A stretch of DNA of 13,925 nt, taken from IMG/VR virus record IMGVR_UViG_3300031772_009399, one strand, 5' to 3'. Positions within the stretch are counted from its first letter, which is position 1; every line of letters begins with the position of its first letter. This document shows, one piece after another, positions 6,868 through 10,729 of the stretch. The translations under genes were made by a program, and so were the position numbers. The notes under the pieces were generated by a model, which was not told the origin of the DNA, ran no database searches, and saw only the letters and a program-made list of their open reading frames with translations. The stretch comes from a virus.

Positions 6868-7371
6868 ATGGGATTTCCACACGGCCTGTCGGTGCTCGAC
6901 GTGCCCGGCATGAAGACGACTATGTCACGGAAGCTAGCTGACTTCAACTTGTGCGAAGGTGACCTAGTGACGCTGCATGCTCATGGGCTCAACTCAGGTG
7001 GCGTCATCTATCGCATTGTCAAAGATAGTGTTCCTAGGTCAGATGCAGTCCGTGGACAATACACAGACTACCAGCGCTCGCGGTACCATGGAAGTCGCGG
7101 CTTGATGGGTACATCAAGGATGACCCCGGCCATCCGTGAAGGCTGGGTCGATGCCAAAAGAAAACCCATCAACCAGACACGGCTCAGTGGCTGCATCGAA
7201 CTGTATCCTGTCTTTTCTTTCATGGCGTTCAAGGGAAACGGCAAAAAGCTGGTGACCTACAGTCAGATCCCAAAGCGGGTTCAAAAGATCGAACTGGTCG
7301 CCTTGGCATCATCATTTGCCAACTTTCACATCTTCTTGAACCAAGAGTTGAAGCGACTACAGGGTGACTAA
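6868..7371 (+). CDS. Long paralog A (167 aa). It has an N-terminal KOW/SH3-like module ('EGDLVTLHAHGLNSGGVIYRIVKD') and a ~100-aa C-terminal extension.
   Basis: Clearly paralogous to 10169..10729: 'GGVIY(R/Q)IV(K/E)D', 'PV(F/Y)(S/T)F', 'G(N/K)GKK', 'KIEL/KLEI'. Confidence 0.6.
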   Translation: MGFPHGLSVLDVPGMKTTMSRKLADFNLCEGDLVTLHAHGLNSGGVIYRIVKDSVPRSDAVRGQYTDYQRSRYHGSRGLMGTSRMTPAIREGWVDAKRKPINQTRLSGCIELYPVFSFMAFKGNGKKLVTYSQIPKRVQKIELVALASSFANFHIFLNQELKRLQGD

Positions 7372-7749
7372 GTGAAGGCCAAACCCGGACAATTTTGGGT
7401 CTGGCAGTTGCCTGTCAGCTCGGGGGATTGGGCCTTTGAAAAACCTTCACAGCAACGCCGTGATGACTGGTTGGCGATTCCTCAGGGTCACGTACATGTC
7501 CACCGCGGCGATGTTTTCATGATTGTCTCATGCAACGATGCAGGACCTGCTCACGATATTCCTCGATTTCATCCAGGCAAAATTCCAGGGATCGACGAGG
7601 AGCTCAACATTCCTGTGCCTGCGGTAGCTATCCACAAAAAGATCTGGCACACTGCTCTGCACGGTCACGAGATCTTCTGGTTGGAAGAACCTGCGCTGGA
7701 ATTCTGCGAACTGTTGAGGGATTCAGATGATCACGACAACCATTCTTGA
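7372..7749 (+). CDS. Small family protein (125 aa) with variant motif 'HRGDVFMIVSCND'.
   Basis: GTG follows the upstream TAA directly, with AGGGTG 8 nt upstream. Strands 'VFMIVS' and 'EIFWLEE' are present. Confidence 0.5.
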   Translation: MKAKPGQFWVWQLPVSSGDWAFEKPSQQRRDDWLAIPQGHVHVHRGDVFMIVSCNDAGPAHDIPRFHPGKIPGIDEELNIPVPAVAIHKKIWHTALHGHEIFWLEEPALEFCELLRDSDDHDNHS

Positions 7750-8005
7750 TATATCCCGCCAAATAGGATGGAAGTACGGTGCCGATGTCACAGAACTACA
7801 AAAATGGTTCCCGCCAGGATCACTGGTTATCTGGTTCAATGAACAATTCGGTGATCACCGCGCAGAGCTGATCGTCGGTTGGCACCGTGACTGCATGGAC
7901 CTATGGAATATCATGGTCATTGATCACGGTCATGTGAGATCGTATACTTGGGTCGTGCTACAGACCGCTCAAACCATCGAGGAATACGAGTACTACCTAT
8001 GTTGA
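7727..8005 (+). CDS. Small family protein (92 aa) with variant motif 'PPGSLVIWF'.
   Basis: GAGGG 8 nt upstream of the ATG. Strands 'AELIVGW' and 'LWNIMVI' are present. Confidence 0.5.
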   Translation: MITTTILDISRQIGWKYGADVTELQKWFPPGSLVIWFNEQFGDHRAELIVGWHRDCMDLWNIMVIDHGHVRSYTWVVLQTAQTIEEYEYYLC

Positions 8006-8346
8006 CGCATGATTCATGGGATTCTCTGAGAATCTGGTCTAGACCTGGTGAAAACGACAGCGATGACCTGCCGGGTGTCTACCATGGGGGTTACATGCCG
8101 CGGCCTGGCGATGCCGTCGAACATGCTTGGCAACCTCCTGGAGCCAGTGCCGGAATCATCCTGACGGTCGATCCTGTCACAGGTGAGTGTACCATCCTGT
8201 GGTCAAAGACGCCGCACGTTAACGTACAGAGACAAAACATCACATCAAGATCACGGAAGCTCAAGCTCACGTGGTCAGTTGCACACAATGAAGACGTCAA
8301 GTTCATCAGCTCTGTCGACACGAAAGTCAGCTTCCTCAAGCCATGA
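7999..8346 (+). CDS. Small PGD-motif family protein (~115 aa). ATG 7999 is preferred over the track start 7948.
   Basis: Motifs: 'PRPGDAVEHAW', 'AGIILTVDPVTGECTILWS'. These closely parallel the genes at 8343 and 8603. The ATG overlaps the upstream stop (ATGTTGA). Confidence 0.5.
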   Translation: MLTHDSWDSLRIWSRPGENDSDDLPGVYHGGYMPRPGDAVEHAWQPPGASAGIILTVDPVTGECTILWSKTPHVNVQRQNITSRSRKLKLTWSVAHNEDVKFISSVDTKVSFLKP

Positions 8347-8606
8347 TCAAGAACACCTTCCGCGGGCGTCTACGATCTTTTATTCCTTCCCGTGGTGTCG
8401 GCCATGCCCAACCAGGCGACATTGTCACCACACACTGGGACAAGACAACGTTCGGTCTGGTGATCGCAGTCAATGACGATCTTGTTACTGTCATGTGGAC
8501 ATTGCCTCCCCACAAGAACGAAGAAATGATGACCGCGCTGTCTGAGCAGATTGCTAAAGAAATTGACCGTGATATCTTGAATGACCTGTTGGCGGGGACC
8601 AAGTGA
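8343..8606 (+). CDS. Small PGD-motif family protein (87 aa).
   Basis: Motifs: 'AQPGDIVTTHW', 'FGLVIAVNDDLVTVMWT'. ATGA overlap. Confidence 0.6.
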   Translation: MIKNTFRGRLRSFIPSRGVGHAQPGDIVTTHWDKTTFGLVIAVNDDLVTVMWTLPPHKNEEMMTALSEQIAKEIDRDILNDLLAGTK

Positions 8607-8923
8607 TTCGCAGCCACGATATCCGTGAACTGTGTCCCGAGGGAGACACACGCTTTTCGCCTGGATCACCCGTGACACTGTTTGGCTCCCGCGAGAAGAC
8701 GTACGGGATCGTCATTTCTCAGATTGAATCACAGTGTACTGTCCTCTGGACGAAGTACCCTGATCCCAAGAGCCTTTTCTTCACGTTGCCCAATGTCAGG
8801 CTGCCTGACATTGGGCAAGTTTTCACTGCACCGATCGCCGAAATCTCGGCGAGCATCCAACCGATGACGGTCCCACGACGAGGGCATTTTCTATCACGAG
8901 TACACCTACGGTTCAGGTTCTAA
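8603..8923 (+). CDS. Small family protein (106 aa) with variant motif 'SPGSPVTLF'.
   Basis: 'YGIVISQIESQCTVLWT' is parallel to the previous gene. GTGA overlap, with GGGGA upstream. Confidence 0.6.
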   Translation: MIRSHDIRELCPEGDTRFSPGSPVTLFGSREKTYGIVISQIESQCTVLWTKYPDPKSLFFTLPNVRLPDIGQVFTAPIAEISASIQPMTVPRRGHFLSRVHLRFRF

Positions 8924-9387: not shown

Positions 9388-9403
9388 CTCCTGGTGTTGG
9401 CAA

Positions 9404-9455
9404 GGGTGAAGAACCTCTCACGTATGGATCCTGTATCATATAGGGTTCTTCACCC
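9404..9455. repeat. Perfect 12-bp inverted repeat GGGTGAAGAACC / GGTTCTTCACCC separated by 28 nt.
   Basis: Read directly from the sequence. It lies ~17 nt downstream of the stop of gene 9136..9387 and could form a stem-loop in the RNA. Confidence 0.6.
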
Positions 9456-9750
9456 GTCGGGGGCACAGGCCCATAACAGTCTTCTTCGTCTTCCTGCGGG
9501 TCTCTGAGATGAGGCGGCAGGTCGTCATCGACCGGTGTGCCTGATTCTAGCCTGCCGATCTGCTCACGGTTGTTGATGTCAGCTGAAAATGAATTGCGAC
9601 CAGCAGGCTGTGGCGGTGAAGCCCAACCTCCTCCTGCTTCTGTCAAGGAGCGTCGGATGATTTCACGGAGTCGACCTAGTCTGAGTCTCACGGGAATAAG
9701 TAGGCAATATCCTGTGCACTTCCATTGTCGCATGAGGTACAATCAATTTC

Positions 9751-9984
9751 ATGGTAACCATCGCAATCGAGGCCACGTGGACGAGGGTCCCAGACCCTAA
9801 TGAAACAATCATTGTCCTGTGTGGCGATATCCGAATAACGCCAGGTTTTTCAGGCAAGGTTCCTGACGCTGGACACATTGAAATCCCGAGCACACTTGTT
9901 CACAGGTTGCCTGCAGGAGCACCCTTGACGATCATTGACAACCAGTATCACAACATCGGCACTGCAAAAGTGGCTGTCCAATGA
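9751..9984 (+). CDS. Hypothetical small protein (77 aa), possibly a swapped-hairpin (AbrB/MazE-like) regulator. The homology is weak.
   Basis: ATG with GAGG upstream and a TACAAT hexamer ~10 nt upstream. The segment 'GHIEIPSTLVHRLPAGAPLTIID' loosely fits a looped-hinge beta-hairpin pattern. It is the first gene after the non-coding gap, and its stop overlaps the next ATG. Confidence 0.4.
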   Translation: MVTIAIEATWTRVPDPNETIIVLCGDIRITPGFSGKVPDAGHIEIPSTLVHRLPAGAPLTIIDNQYHNIGTAKVAVQ

Positions 9985-10172
9985 AATCGCGCTTCTTCTT
10001 TTTGATTGCTCGCATCTTGTGGTTGGTCGGCATGCCGACCATGAGCCTCCGCGTTCACATTGCCGGATTGAAGGCTCGCAAGCATCAACCTCCCATTTTT
10101 TACGATGCTCTAGTTCACGATCATGAAGCCGAAGAACCTAAGGCGGCCCAGCTGCAGGACAGGGAACCATGA
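9981..10172 (+). CDS. Small protein (63 aa) with an N-terminal hydrophobic helix ('FFFLIARILWLVGMP'), a possible membrane anchor.
   Basis: ATGA overlaps at both ends link it to its neighbours. Confidence 0.35.
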   Translation: MKSRFFFLIARILWLVGMPTMSLRVHIAGLKARKHQPPIFYDALVHDHEAEEPKAAQLQDREP

Positions 10173-10729
10173 GTCGCTGGGCCCGCCACGATCAGACCCG
10201 TGACAAACCTCTGCCTGGACCGGAATCCCGCGGCCTGACTGTCGGCAGCATTGTGACGTTCACGTCAGAGAAGCACAACACGGGCGGTGTGATCTATCAG
10301 ATCGTCGAGGACCAGGCGCCGATCAAGCCCCATACCACTGTCCGCGAGGTGACCAGAATGGAGCGACAGTGGGTTCCTGTGGGATATGCTTCAATTGAAG
10401 CTGTTTCCAAAGGAGTTCATCCTGGAACTCGCGAGGGTGAATACAAGGAAGTTCCGACAACTGTCAAAGACTACGGTGCCTGGGACGAGAAAGGCAAAAA
10501 GATCATGGTCTCAGCCTTGAGCGGTTTTGTCCGCATCGCCCCTGTATACACTTTCTTCCCGACACGGAAAGGCAAGGAACCAGTGGGCAAAGGAAACACC
10601 ATCATCATCGGCTATGACGACCTACGTCGACTGCAAAAGTTGGAGATCACCAATTTGGGGTCTAAGTACATCGAGCTAGGTGAACTGCTGAAGACCCTAG
10701 CCCGCCGCGGGGGAGCAGAGGACCTATGA
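10169..10729 (+). CDS. Long paralog B (186 aa), related to 6868..7371.
   Basis: Shared motifs: 'GSIVTFTSEKHNTGGVIYQIVED', 'PVYTFF', 'GKGKEPVGKGN', 'KLEITNL'. AGGGAA Shine-Dalgarno 7 nt upstream. ATGA overlap with the downstream phosphatase gene. Confidence 0.6.
   Translation: MSRWARHDQTRDKPLPGPESRGLTVGSIVTFTSEKHNTGGVIYQIVEDQAPIKPHTTVREVTRMERQWVPVGYASIEAVSKGVHPGTREGEYKEVPTTVKDYGAWDEKGKKIMVSALSGFVRIAPVYTFFPTRKGKEPVGKGNTIIIGYDDLRRLQKLEITNLGSKYIELGELLKTLARRGGAEDL

What the first reader, a model, noticed from the sequence alone, without database searches (positions are those of the whole stretch)
6868..10729. Two longer paralogs reuse the same N-terminal module, suggesting a duplicated 'small array plus long paralog' cassette
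The genes 6868-7371 and 10169-10729 share 'GGVIY(R/Q)IV(K/E)D', 'PV(F/Y)(S/T)F', a Gly/Lys 'GNGKK/GKGKEPVGKGN' loop and 'KIEL/KLEI'. Their N-termini ('EGDLVTLHAHGLNSGGVIYRIV', 'VGSIVTFTSEKHNTGGVIYQIV') follow the KOW-like G-D-x-V...G...G-V-I pattern of the small family. Each sits beside an array of small members. The locus therefore appears to have grown by segmental duplication of a module, with the long form fusing the shared barrel to a conserved ~100-aa C-domain. That C-domain may be the functional effector or partner-binding domain.
Basis: seen in the sequence. Interest (0 to 1): 0.6.

Follow-up and report, generated by a model that had tools for sequence, protein, structure and literature searches.

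The report
Ancient paralog pair in huge phage
Two genes in a huge-phage genome fragment are real but very old duplicates from an undescribed family of small, basic beta-barrel proteins; nothing supports a recently duplicated "array plus long gene" cassette, and their function is unknown.

Summary
ORFs 6868-7371 (A, 167 aa) and 10169-10729 (B, 186 aa) align over almost their full length (27% identity, E=7e-12), and every quoted motif is present.

- **Age of the duplication.** The A/B split is the deepest branch of a family of 87 clusters, all about 135-205 aa. Three close relatives each carry one A and one B. A and B orthologs are 54% and 48% identical, against 27% for A versus B.
- **No cassette.** There is no DNA similarity between the two regions, the flanking small genes are not homologous, and B's neighbours differ between genomes.
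- **No separate C-domain.** The AlphaFold model (pLDDT 82) shows five long strands over residues ~30-118, which I read as one elaborated SH3/Tudor-like barrel. 'PVFSF' is its last strand. A hairpin and a 24-residue C-terminal helix follow.
- **Link to the small 'PGD' genes.** It rests on a real motif, but profile comparison is marginal (P about 0.002-0.007).

The family matches nothing in Pfam, PHROGs, NCBIfam, PADLOC, PDB sequences or BFVD, and it is strongly basic (median pI 9.5). A lies downstream of a phage major-vault-protein-like gene in every lineage with context. In four other lineages B directly follows a small barrel protein carrying a T4 capsid-protein fragment.

My best guess, which is inferred, is a basic binding adaptor.

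The parts
6868..7371 (+). Long paralog A (167 aa, pI 9.96), A-type clade (RIxKD motif, RLxGE tail). Model: elaborated SH3/Tudor-like barrel at about aa 30-118, a hairpin, and C-terminal helix 143-166.
10169..10729 (+). Long paralog B (186 aa, pI 9.46), B-type clade (QIVxD motif, GGAE tail). It has insertions relative to A in the variable middle hairpin.
2698..5364 (+). Major-vault-protein-like gene (888 aa), upstream of A in every lineage with context. It is followed by a 16-bp-stem terminator-like hairpin at 5365-5400.
   Evidence: Pfam MVP_shoulder 2.2e-29 and Vault_3 4.8e-07; synteny; hairpin
5435..6160 (+). Basic 241-aa protein of unknown function, conserved between the MVP-like gene and A.
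6292..6567 (+). Small PGD-motif gene upstream of A, with orthologs in L001, L017 and L018.
6564..6863 (+). Small PGD-motif gene directly upstream of A, with orthologs in the same position in L009 and L010. It is not similar to the genes upstream of B.
7999..8346 (+). Small barrel protein whose C-terminus resembles the T4-type capsid protein E-loop return strand (Gp23 HMM 135-170).
8343..8606 (+). Paralog of 7999-8346. Its C-terminus weakly resembles the next Gp23 segment (HMM 171-195, E=0.0026), which I place at the spine helix from memory.
8603..8923 (+). Small barrel (aa 1-50, pLDDT about 90) plus a disordered tail. The tail is homologous to the most conserved N-terminal segment of T4-type capsid proteins (Gp23 HMM 4-55). 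Its orthologs lie directly upstream of B-type genes in L001, L009, L010 and L020.
9374..9742 (-). Conserved minus-strand gene missed by the caller on the source contig. It lies after B in L009 and at the matching position in L010, but before B in the window, which marks a rearrangement around B.

Best explanation
A (6868-7371) and B (10169-10729) are the two ancient subfamilies of a previously undescribed protein family of huge phages. The window is the first 13.9 kb of a 36-kb metagenomic contig related to a 309-kb viral contig.

Fold (from the model): one elaborated SH3/Tudor/KOW-like beta-barrel built from five long strands. A variable, indel-rich hairpin sits in the middle. A Gly/Lys-tipped hairpin and a long amphipathic C-terminal helix follow the barrel.

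Shown: paralogy, the age of the duplication, the fold class, the basic charge and the conserved gene neighbourhood.

Inferred mechanism: these are non-enzymatic, basic binding adaptors. The barrel and its Gly/Lys loops would bind a nucleic acid or an acidic protein partner. The C-terminal helix would mediate self-association or A-B association. They would act together with their conserved neighbours: the phage MVP-like protein and the 241-aa protein for A, and the small 'barrel plus capsid-protein fragment' proteins for B. They are not the product of a recent cassette duplication.
For: - Paralogy: BLASTP E=7e-12 over 159 aa.
- Family size: 8 clusters by word-indexed search and 87 representatives by exhaustive HMM search, 66 of them at E<=1e-10, nearly all 135-205 aa and matched end to end.
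- One A and one B in each of L001, L005 (the window's contig), L009 and L010.
- The NJ tree splits first into A-type and B-type clades.
- Orthologs are 54% (A) and 48% (B) identical, against 27% for A versus B.
- Charge: median pI 9.5, with 90% of members above 8.5, while most neighbouring small proteins are acidic or neutral.
- Neighbourhood of A: the MVP-like gene lies 1.1-3.0 kb upstream of A in the window, L001, L009/L010 and L017/L018.
- Neighbourhood of B: the Gp23-fragment gene is directly upstream of the B-type gene in L001, L009, L010 and L020.
- No catalytic family matched.
Against: - The function is entirely inferred; no homolog has been characterised.
- Basic charge is suggestive of nucleic-acid binding but is not specific.
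- The model rests on an 8-sequence alignment, and its middle hairpin is low confidence (pLDDT 52 at aa 71-80).
- MVP-carrying Mahaphage-type genomes (LR756501, LR756500) have no A/B member within 17 kb of the MVP gene, so the MVP link is not obligatory.
- In the window itself, B is not adjacent to the Gp23-fragment gene.
Confidence: 0.45

Rival explanations
1. The locus grew by segmental duplication of a cassette made of small barrel genes plus a long gene. The long form is a fusion of the shared small barrel to an independent ~100-aa effector or partner-binding C-domain.
For: A and B are paralogs. Small PGD-motif genes lie upstream of both. One 11-aa match links 6292-6567 and 9751-9984, LPGDIAIAPGT against LCGDIRITPGF, at E=0.2. 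hhalign places the weak similarity of the small families at the correct N-terminal position of the A/B profile (P=0.002-0.007).
Against: There is no DNA or co-linear protein similarity outside the long genes. The genes around B differ between genomes, and B has moved relative to conserved markers. The A/B split is the deepest in the family. Strand 109-117 (PVFSF) reads as the barrel's last strand rather than part of a separate domain. The C-part was not seen fused to other domains.
Confidence: 0.08
2. Host-takeover factors that bind bacterial RNA polymerase through a Tudor-like domain, as CarD, Mfd-RID and the UvrD/PcrA C-terminal domains do. The C-terminal helix would contact DNA or another subunit.
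Confidence: 0.12
3. Capsid-associated proteins (decoration, cement or internal basic proteins) that work with the neighbouring proteins carrying capsid-protein fragments.
Confidence: 0.15
4. Cargo or adaptor subunits of a phage-encoded vault-like (MVP) shell.
For: The order MVP-like gene, 241-aa gene, small gene, A is conserved across four lineages down to 33% identity of A.
Against: MVP genes in the 735-kb and 462-kb huge phages have no A/B member nearby. A strong terminator-like hairpin separates the MVP gene from the downstream genes. No interaction evidence exists.
Confidence: 0.1

Closest known systems
Tudor / KOW / CarD-RID type SH3-like small beta-barrels (for example PHF20L1 Tudor 6l0x, T. 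thermophilus CarD 4l5g, Spt5 KOW 4zn3, UvrD C-terminal domain 7egs)
   Different: No sequence-profile match to any of these families. The strands are unusually long (10-14 residues), with a variable hairpin insertion. One long C-terminal helix replaces CarD's helical domain. No aromatic cage or KOW GxxKG signature was identified.
Small 'PGD' barrel proteins of the same locus (window 7999-8346, 8343-8606, 8603-8923 and others)
   Same: An N-terminal [P/v]GDxV motif followed by a hydrophobic strand. Both model as small beta-barrels. Same operon-like gene run.
   Different: The family HMM does not detect them (E>0.4). hhalign gives only P=0.002-0.007 over 26-42 columns. The small barrel is complete in about 50 residues, while the A/B barrel spans about 90. 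The C-terminal parts are unrelated.
FeoA (PF04023), an SH3-like domain
   Same: Weak Pfam hits to the N-terminal 45 residues of A (E=0.031 for the fragment) and to 2 of 64 members (best E=0.0044).
   Different: Far below the gathering threshold (12-15 bits against 23). No iron-transport context.
T4-type major capsid protein Gp23 (PF07068)
   Same: Neighbouring small genes carry bona fide Gp23 segments.
   Different: A and B themselves show no similarity to Gp23: 0 of 64 members hit PF07068 at E<=10, and hhalign against the three fragment alignments is negative.

Membership tests
A/B long-paralog family (undescribed) | Full-length homology between the two window proteins | tested here: met
   BLASTP E=7e-12, 27% identity over 159 aa. 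Both score 1e-46 to 1e-49 against the 68-sequence family HMM.
A/B long-paralog family (undescribed) | Two subfamilies conserved as one A plus one B per genome | tested here: met
   L001, L005, L009 and L010 each have exactly two full-length members. The tree's first split is A-type against B-type. L017 and L018 show only A within 10 kb.
SH3/Tudor/KOW-like small beta-barrel fold | Structural superposition on known barrels | tested here: met
KOW (Pfam PF00467) / CarD_TRCF_RID / Tudor sequence families | Match to the family profile at or near the curated threshold | tested here: not met
   No such Pfam family appears for A, B or any of 64 members even at E<=10. No PDB sequence match at E<1.
Small PGD-motif barrel family of the locus | Detectable sequence homology of the A/B N-terminus to the small proteins | tested here: inconclusive
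   Motif-level resemblance. hmmsearch E>0.4. hhalign P=0.0022-0.007, probability 5-13%, in the correct register.
Segmental ('cassette') duplication | Co-linear similarity of flanking genes or DNA between the two regions | tested here: not met
   The best blastn hit is 34 nt at 73.5%, E=0.45. tblastx aligns only the long genes. There are no long direct repeats.
Segmental ('cassette') duplication | Conserved synteny of each long gene with its own small array | tested here: not met
   The genes upstream of A are partly conserved. The genes upstream of B in the window (9751-9984, 9981-10172) are not upstream of B in L001, L009, L010 or L020.
T4-type major capsid protein (PF07068 Gp23) | Profile match of A/B to any part of Gp23 | tested here: not met
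   0 of 64 members. hhalign against the fragment alignments gives P>=0.03.
Known phage or defence families (PHROGs, NCBIfam, PADLOC) | Any profile match | tested here: not met
   No hits for A or B. BFVD Foldseek best E=0.16.

The most novel reading that the evidence does not exclude
A/B proteins are the conserved partners of a set of small barrel proteins that each display a segment of the T4-type capsid protein. One of these segments is the most conserved N-terminal stretch, which in T4 (placement from memory) is the EF-Tu-binding 'Gol' peptide. Together they would form a huge-phage module that uses capsid-protein mimicry. It could bind EF-Tu or the chaperonin, or it could decoy host immunity that senses capsid proteins. 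The basic A/B barrels would act as the scaffold or nucleic-acid anchor.
Probability: 0.1. Interest if true: 0.75.

Novelty: new variant of a known kind. Interest (0 to 1): 0.33.

Why it matters
As posed, the finding is modest. It defines a new, fairly rare family (87 clusters at 50% identity) of basic SH3/Tudor-like proteins specific to one group of huge phages. It corrects the idea of a recently amplified cassette.

Its value lies in context. The family is conserved next to two unusual features of huge phages whose roles are unknown: a phage-encoded major-vault-protein homolog, and small proteins that fuse a beta-barrel to fragments of the capsid protein. If A/B prove to be binding partners of either, they would give an experimental handle on those systems. 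Otherwise this is one more hypothetical-protein family with a common fold.

Tried and rejected
1. **A/B C-terminal part as a capsid-protein fragment.** The neighbours carry Gp23 HMM pieces 4-55, 135-170 and 171-195, and B follows the 4-55 piece, so I tested whether A/B supply a missing piece. A Pfam scan of 64 members at E<=10 gave no Gp23 hit. hhalign of each fragment alignment against the family gave P>=0.03. Rejected at the sequence level.
2. **Stop-codon recoding or a simply fragmented capsid gene.** The three fragment genes are in three different frames, overlap by 4 nt and are not co-linear with Gp23, so I judged this unlikely (coordinates, HMM positions).
3. **Ig-like repeat proteins.** Hits to two giant repeat proteins (P0070, P0078; 7-8 stretches matching the N-terminal 40-50 positions) turned out to be Ig-like repeats with a similar strand pattern (VTFTAT..GG..YQW). 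I treated this as repeat-summed chance similarity.
4. **Other searches with no result.** Megablast and tblastn of A against 50,697 phage records found nothing. BFVD structure search gave nothing below E=0.16. The afdb50 library was not available. No tRNA or Rfam family lies in the window. The promoter and terminator scan was at background level apart from two hairpins.
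Full report
**Source and setting.** The window is bases 1-13925 of a 36,284-bp metagenomic contig (ENA ERZ27247880, k141_2627583).
- Nearly all genes are on the + strand and tightly packed.
- Recognisable genes are a major-vault-protein-like gene (2698-5364; MVP_shoulder 2.2e-29), a 2H phosphoesterase (1558-1971) and a NinI/ApaH-type metallophosphatase (10726-11547).
- Relatives include a 309-kb contig that is also listed in IMG/VR (L001/L016), a 108-kb contig (L009), a 16.8-kb contig (L010), and contigs of 140 kb and 81 kb (L017, L018).
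- These relatives also encode an IF-1 homolog, and L009 encodes a Cpn60 chaperonin.
- The MVP-like protein is 40% identical to genes in the 735-kb and 462-kb huge phages LR756501 and LR756500.
- The element is therefore a huge phage.

**1. The observation.**
- ORFs 6868-7371 (A, 167 aa) and 10169-10729 (B, 186 aa) are present and were called independently as genes.
- BLASTP gives E=7e-12 with 27% identity over 159 aligned positions, which is almost the full length.
- Among the 24 + strand proteins of the window, this is the only clearly significant pair.
- The 'small family' pattern is real at the motif level. PG[DSNT]x[hydrophobic] occurs near the N-terminus of 14 of 21 short proteins, against 0.68 expected.

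**2. The family.**
- A word-indexed search of 5.8 billion proteins found 8 clusters.
- An exhaustive profile search of 1.84 billion representatives found 87 at E<=0.001 and 66 at E<=1e-10. Nearly all are 135-205 aa and match end to end.
- The few very long hits are Ig-like repeat proteins whose repeated strand pattern sums to a score. I regard them as spurious.
- Neither A, B nor any of 64 members matches a Pfam family. The only exceptions are two sub-threshold FeoA (SH3-like) hits.
- PHROGs, NCBIfam, PADLOC, PDB sequences and BFVD structures give nothing.
- The family is strongly basic, with median pI 9.5 and 90% of members above 8.5. Most neighbouring small proteins are acidic or neutral.

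**3. Age of the duplication.**
- A 68-sequence family HMM finds exactly two full-length members in each of L001, L005 (the window's contig), L009 and L010. These are one A ortholog and one B ortholog.
- A orthologs are 54% identical and B orthologs 48%. A and B are only 27% identical.
- A midpoint-rooted NJ tree splits first into an A-type clade (RIxKD, RLxGE tail) and a B-type clade (QIVxD, some with a GGAE tail), each with about half the members.
- L001 also has two more divergent members, at 8749-9210 and at 12390-12665; the latter is truncated.
- The duplication is therefore ancient, not a recent event at this locus.

**4. The cassette hypothesis.**
- blastn between 6289-7371 and 9751-10729 finds nothing better than 34 nt at 73.5% (E=0.45). 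tblastx aligns only the long genes.
- The window has no long direct repeats. The short ones are just the CCN-GGC-GAY codons of the PGD motif.
- The genes upstream of A (6292-6567, 6564-6863) are not similar to those upstream of B (9751-9984, 9981-10172). The only match is 11 residues at E=0.2.
- Synteny argues the same way. In L001, L009, L010 and the distant L020, the B-type gene directly follows the ortholog of window 8603-8923.
- In the window, about 1.2 kb of other genes intervene between 8603-8923 and B.
- The window's 9751-9984 ortholog lies after B in L001.
- A conserved minus-strand gene (window 9374-9742; 52% identical to L009:11997-12323, E=8e-34) lies after B in L009 and at the matching position in L010. 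In the window it lies before B.
- B has therefore been rearranged relative to its neighbours, and the small genes beside it in the window are not 'its' array.

**5. Architecture.**
- The AlphaFold2 model of A (8-sequence alignment, pLDDT 82, pTM 0.67) has strands 33-38, 41-54, 61-70, 85-94 and 109-117, with a short helix at 103-106 before the last strand. A hairpin (127-130), a short helix and strand, and a long helix (143-166) follow.
- The strand order, and aligned lengths well above 45 residues, indicate one elaborated barrel spanning about residues 30-118. The conserved 'PVFSF' is its last strand.
- The family alignment shows two conserved blocks, roughly A residues 25-56 and 90-166. They flank a variable, indel-rich hairpin that has low model confidence at its tip.
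- I could not inspect coordinates, so this reading is an inference.

**6. Relation to the small genes.**
- The family HMM gives the small genes E>0.4.
- Profile-profile comparison gives the best values for the 7999/8343 and 8603 families: P=0.0045, 0.007 and 0.0022 when merged, with probability 5-13%. The alignment is in the correct register (PGDxV...G.VI against vGDlV...GGiIY).
- A shared ancestry of the first two strands is possible but not demonstrated.
- The small genes themselves fall into several sequence families.

**7. Context that may bear on function.**
- A lies 1.1-3.0 kb downstream of the MVP-like gene in all four lineages with context. The 241-aa basic protein lies between them in each, and a 6292-like small gene is detected there in the window, L001 and L017/L018.
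- MVP-bearing Mahaphage-type genomes have no member within 17 kb of the MVP gene.
- B-type genes are coupled to a remarkable neighbour family. Window 7999-8346, 8343-8606 and 8603-8923 are related to one another (hhalign probability 96.8%).
- Each of these three combines a small N-terminal barrel with a different short segment of the T4-type major capsid protein:

| Window gene | Gp23 HMM segment | Evidence |
|---|---|---|
| 7999-8346 | 135-170 | Ortholog E=2e-8; aligns to T4 gp23 254-286 |
| 8343-8606 | 171-195 | E=0.0026 |
| 8603-8923 | 4-55 | Orthologs down to E=1.6e-13 |

- PHROG 'major head protein' phrog_138 confirms two of these, at positions 61-119 and 187-221.
- The 4-55 segment (consensus FAMPLVRRVF..IA.QLVSVQPMSLPSG.IFYMDYTYG) defines a widespread family of small proteins.
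- From memory, this segment corresponds to the T4 'Gol' region. A T4 review describes Gol as the most conserved part of gp23 and as binding EF-Tu domains II-III (PMC3014915).
- In the model this tail is disordered.
- A/B themselves show no similarity to these fragments.

**8. Mechanism.**
- Shown: ancient paralogy, the SH3-like barrel fold class, the basic charge, the lack of any catalytic signature and the conserved neighbourhoods.
- Inferred: A and B are basic binding adaptors for a nucleic acid or an acidic protein. They may pair through their C-terminal helices and act with their conserved neighbours.
- Rivals are RNAP-binding Tudor-like takeover factors, capsid-associated proteins, and MVP-shell cargo. 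None can be excluded with these data.

**9. Verdict.**
- This is a new family with a common fold. The finding as posed is of modest interest.
- The more unusual feature is the adjacent family of barrel plus capsid-fragment proteins.

Noticed in passing
window 7999-8346, 8343-8606, 8603-8923; L001:10744-11079, 11255-11545, 11542-11901; L009:10859-11167, 11161-11568: Three adjacent, mutually related small genes fuse a ~50-aa beta-barrel to different short segments of the T4-type major capsid protein (Gp23 HMM 135-170, 171-195 and 4-55). They are in different frames and not co-linear with Gp23. The 4-55 segment matches what I recall as the EF-Tu-binding 'Gol' region, and it defines a large family of small proteins (1634 hits at E<=0.001). 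This looks like capsid-protein mimicry and may be the most interesting thing in the window.
   Followed up: partly
window 2698-5364 (hairpin 5365-5400): A phage-encoded major vault protein homolog (888 aa; MVP_shoulder 2e-29). It is 40% identical to genes in the 735-kb and 462-kb huge phages LR756501 and LR756500, and is followed by a 16-bp-stem terminator-like hairpin. Phage MVPs have been noted in one preprint (10.1101/2023.11.10.566534).
   Followed up: partly
window 9374-9742 (- strand): A conserved minus-strand gene (52% identical to L009:11997-12323, E=8e-34) that was not called on the source contig. The alignment begins at residue 18 of the ORF, so the true start may lie downstream of the first start codon. 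It is Pro/Asp/Glu-rich and has no known family. Its position relative to B differs between genomes.
   Followed up: partly
window 8786-8818: A perfect 16-nt inverted repeat (TTGCCCAATGTCAGGC / GCCTGACATTGGGCAA, arms 1 nt apart) inside gene 8603-8923. It sits where this copy's capsid-like segment departs from the family consensus (LPNVRLPDIGQVF instead of F..PLIRRVF). It is followed by a T-rich run and scored as terminator-like.
   Followed up: no
window 2012-2091 (gene 1968-2231): A GCC/GCT-rich imperfect tandem repeat encoding a Pro/Leu low-complexity stretch (PPPLLLPLPPLLLPPLLPMPLPLP), directly after the PGD motif of a small protein.
   Followed up: no
window 2337-2474 and 2389-2643: A 45-aa ORF with a typical PGD N-terminus (VKPGDLLYV) overlaps, in another frame, the called 80-aa gene that lacks the motif. 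This may be a frameshifted or mis-assembled small-family gene.
   Followed up: no
window 10726-11547; L001:13771-14046: The NinI/ApaH-like metallophosphatase that follows B in the window is reduced to a 91-aa remnant ORF in the 309-kb relative, and no counterpart was found at that position in L009 or L010.
   Followed up: partly
L001:8749-9210 and L001:12390-12665: The 309-kb relative has two extra, divergent members of the A/B family. One is full-size and lies after the 239-aa gene. One is truncated (91 aa) and lies directly after B. This shows continuing turnover of the family.
   Followed up: partly
L009:1-4950 and L010:100-3630: There are long runs of 12-18 small (70-100 aa) same-strand genes upstream of the MVP-like gene. 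They include two related paralog families and one Pfam DUF4314 member (E=2.8e-17).
   Followed up: partly
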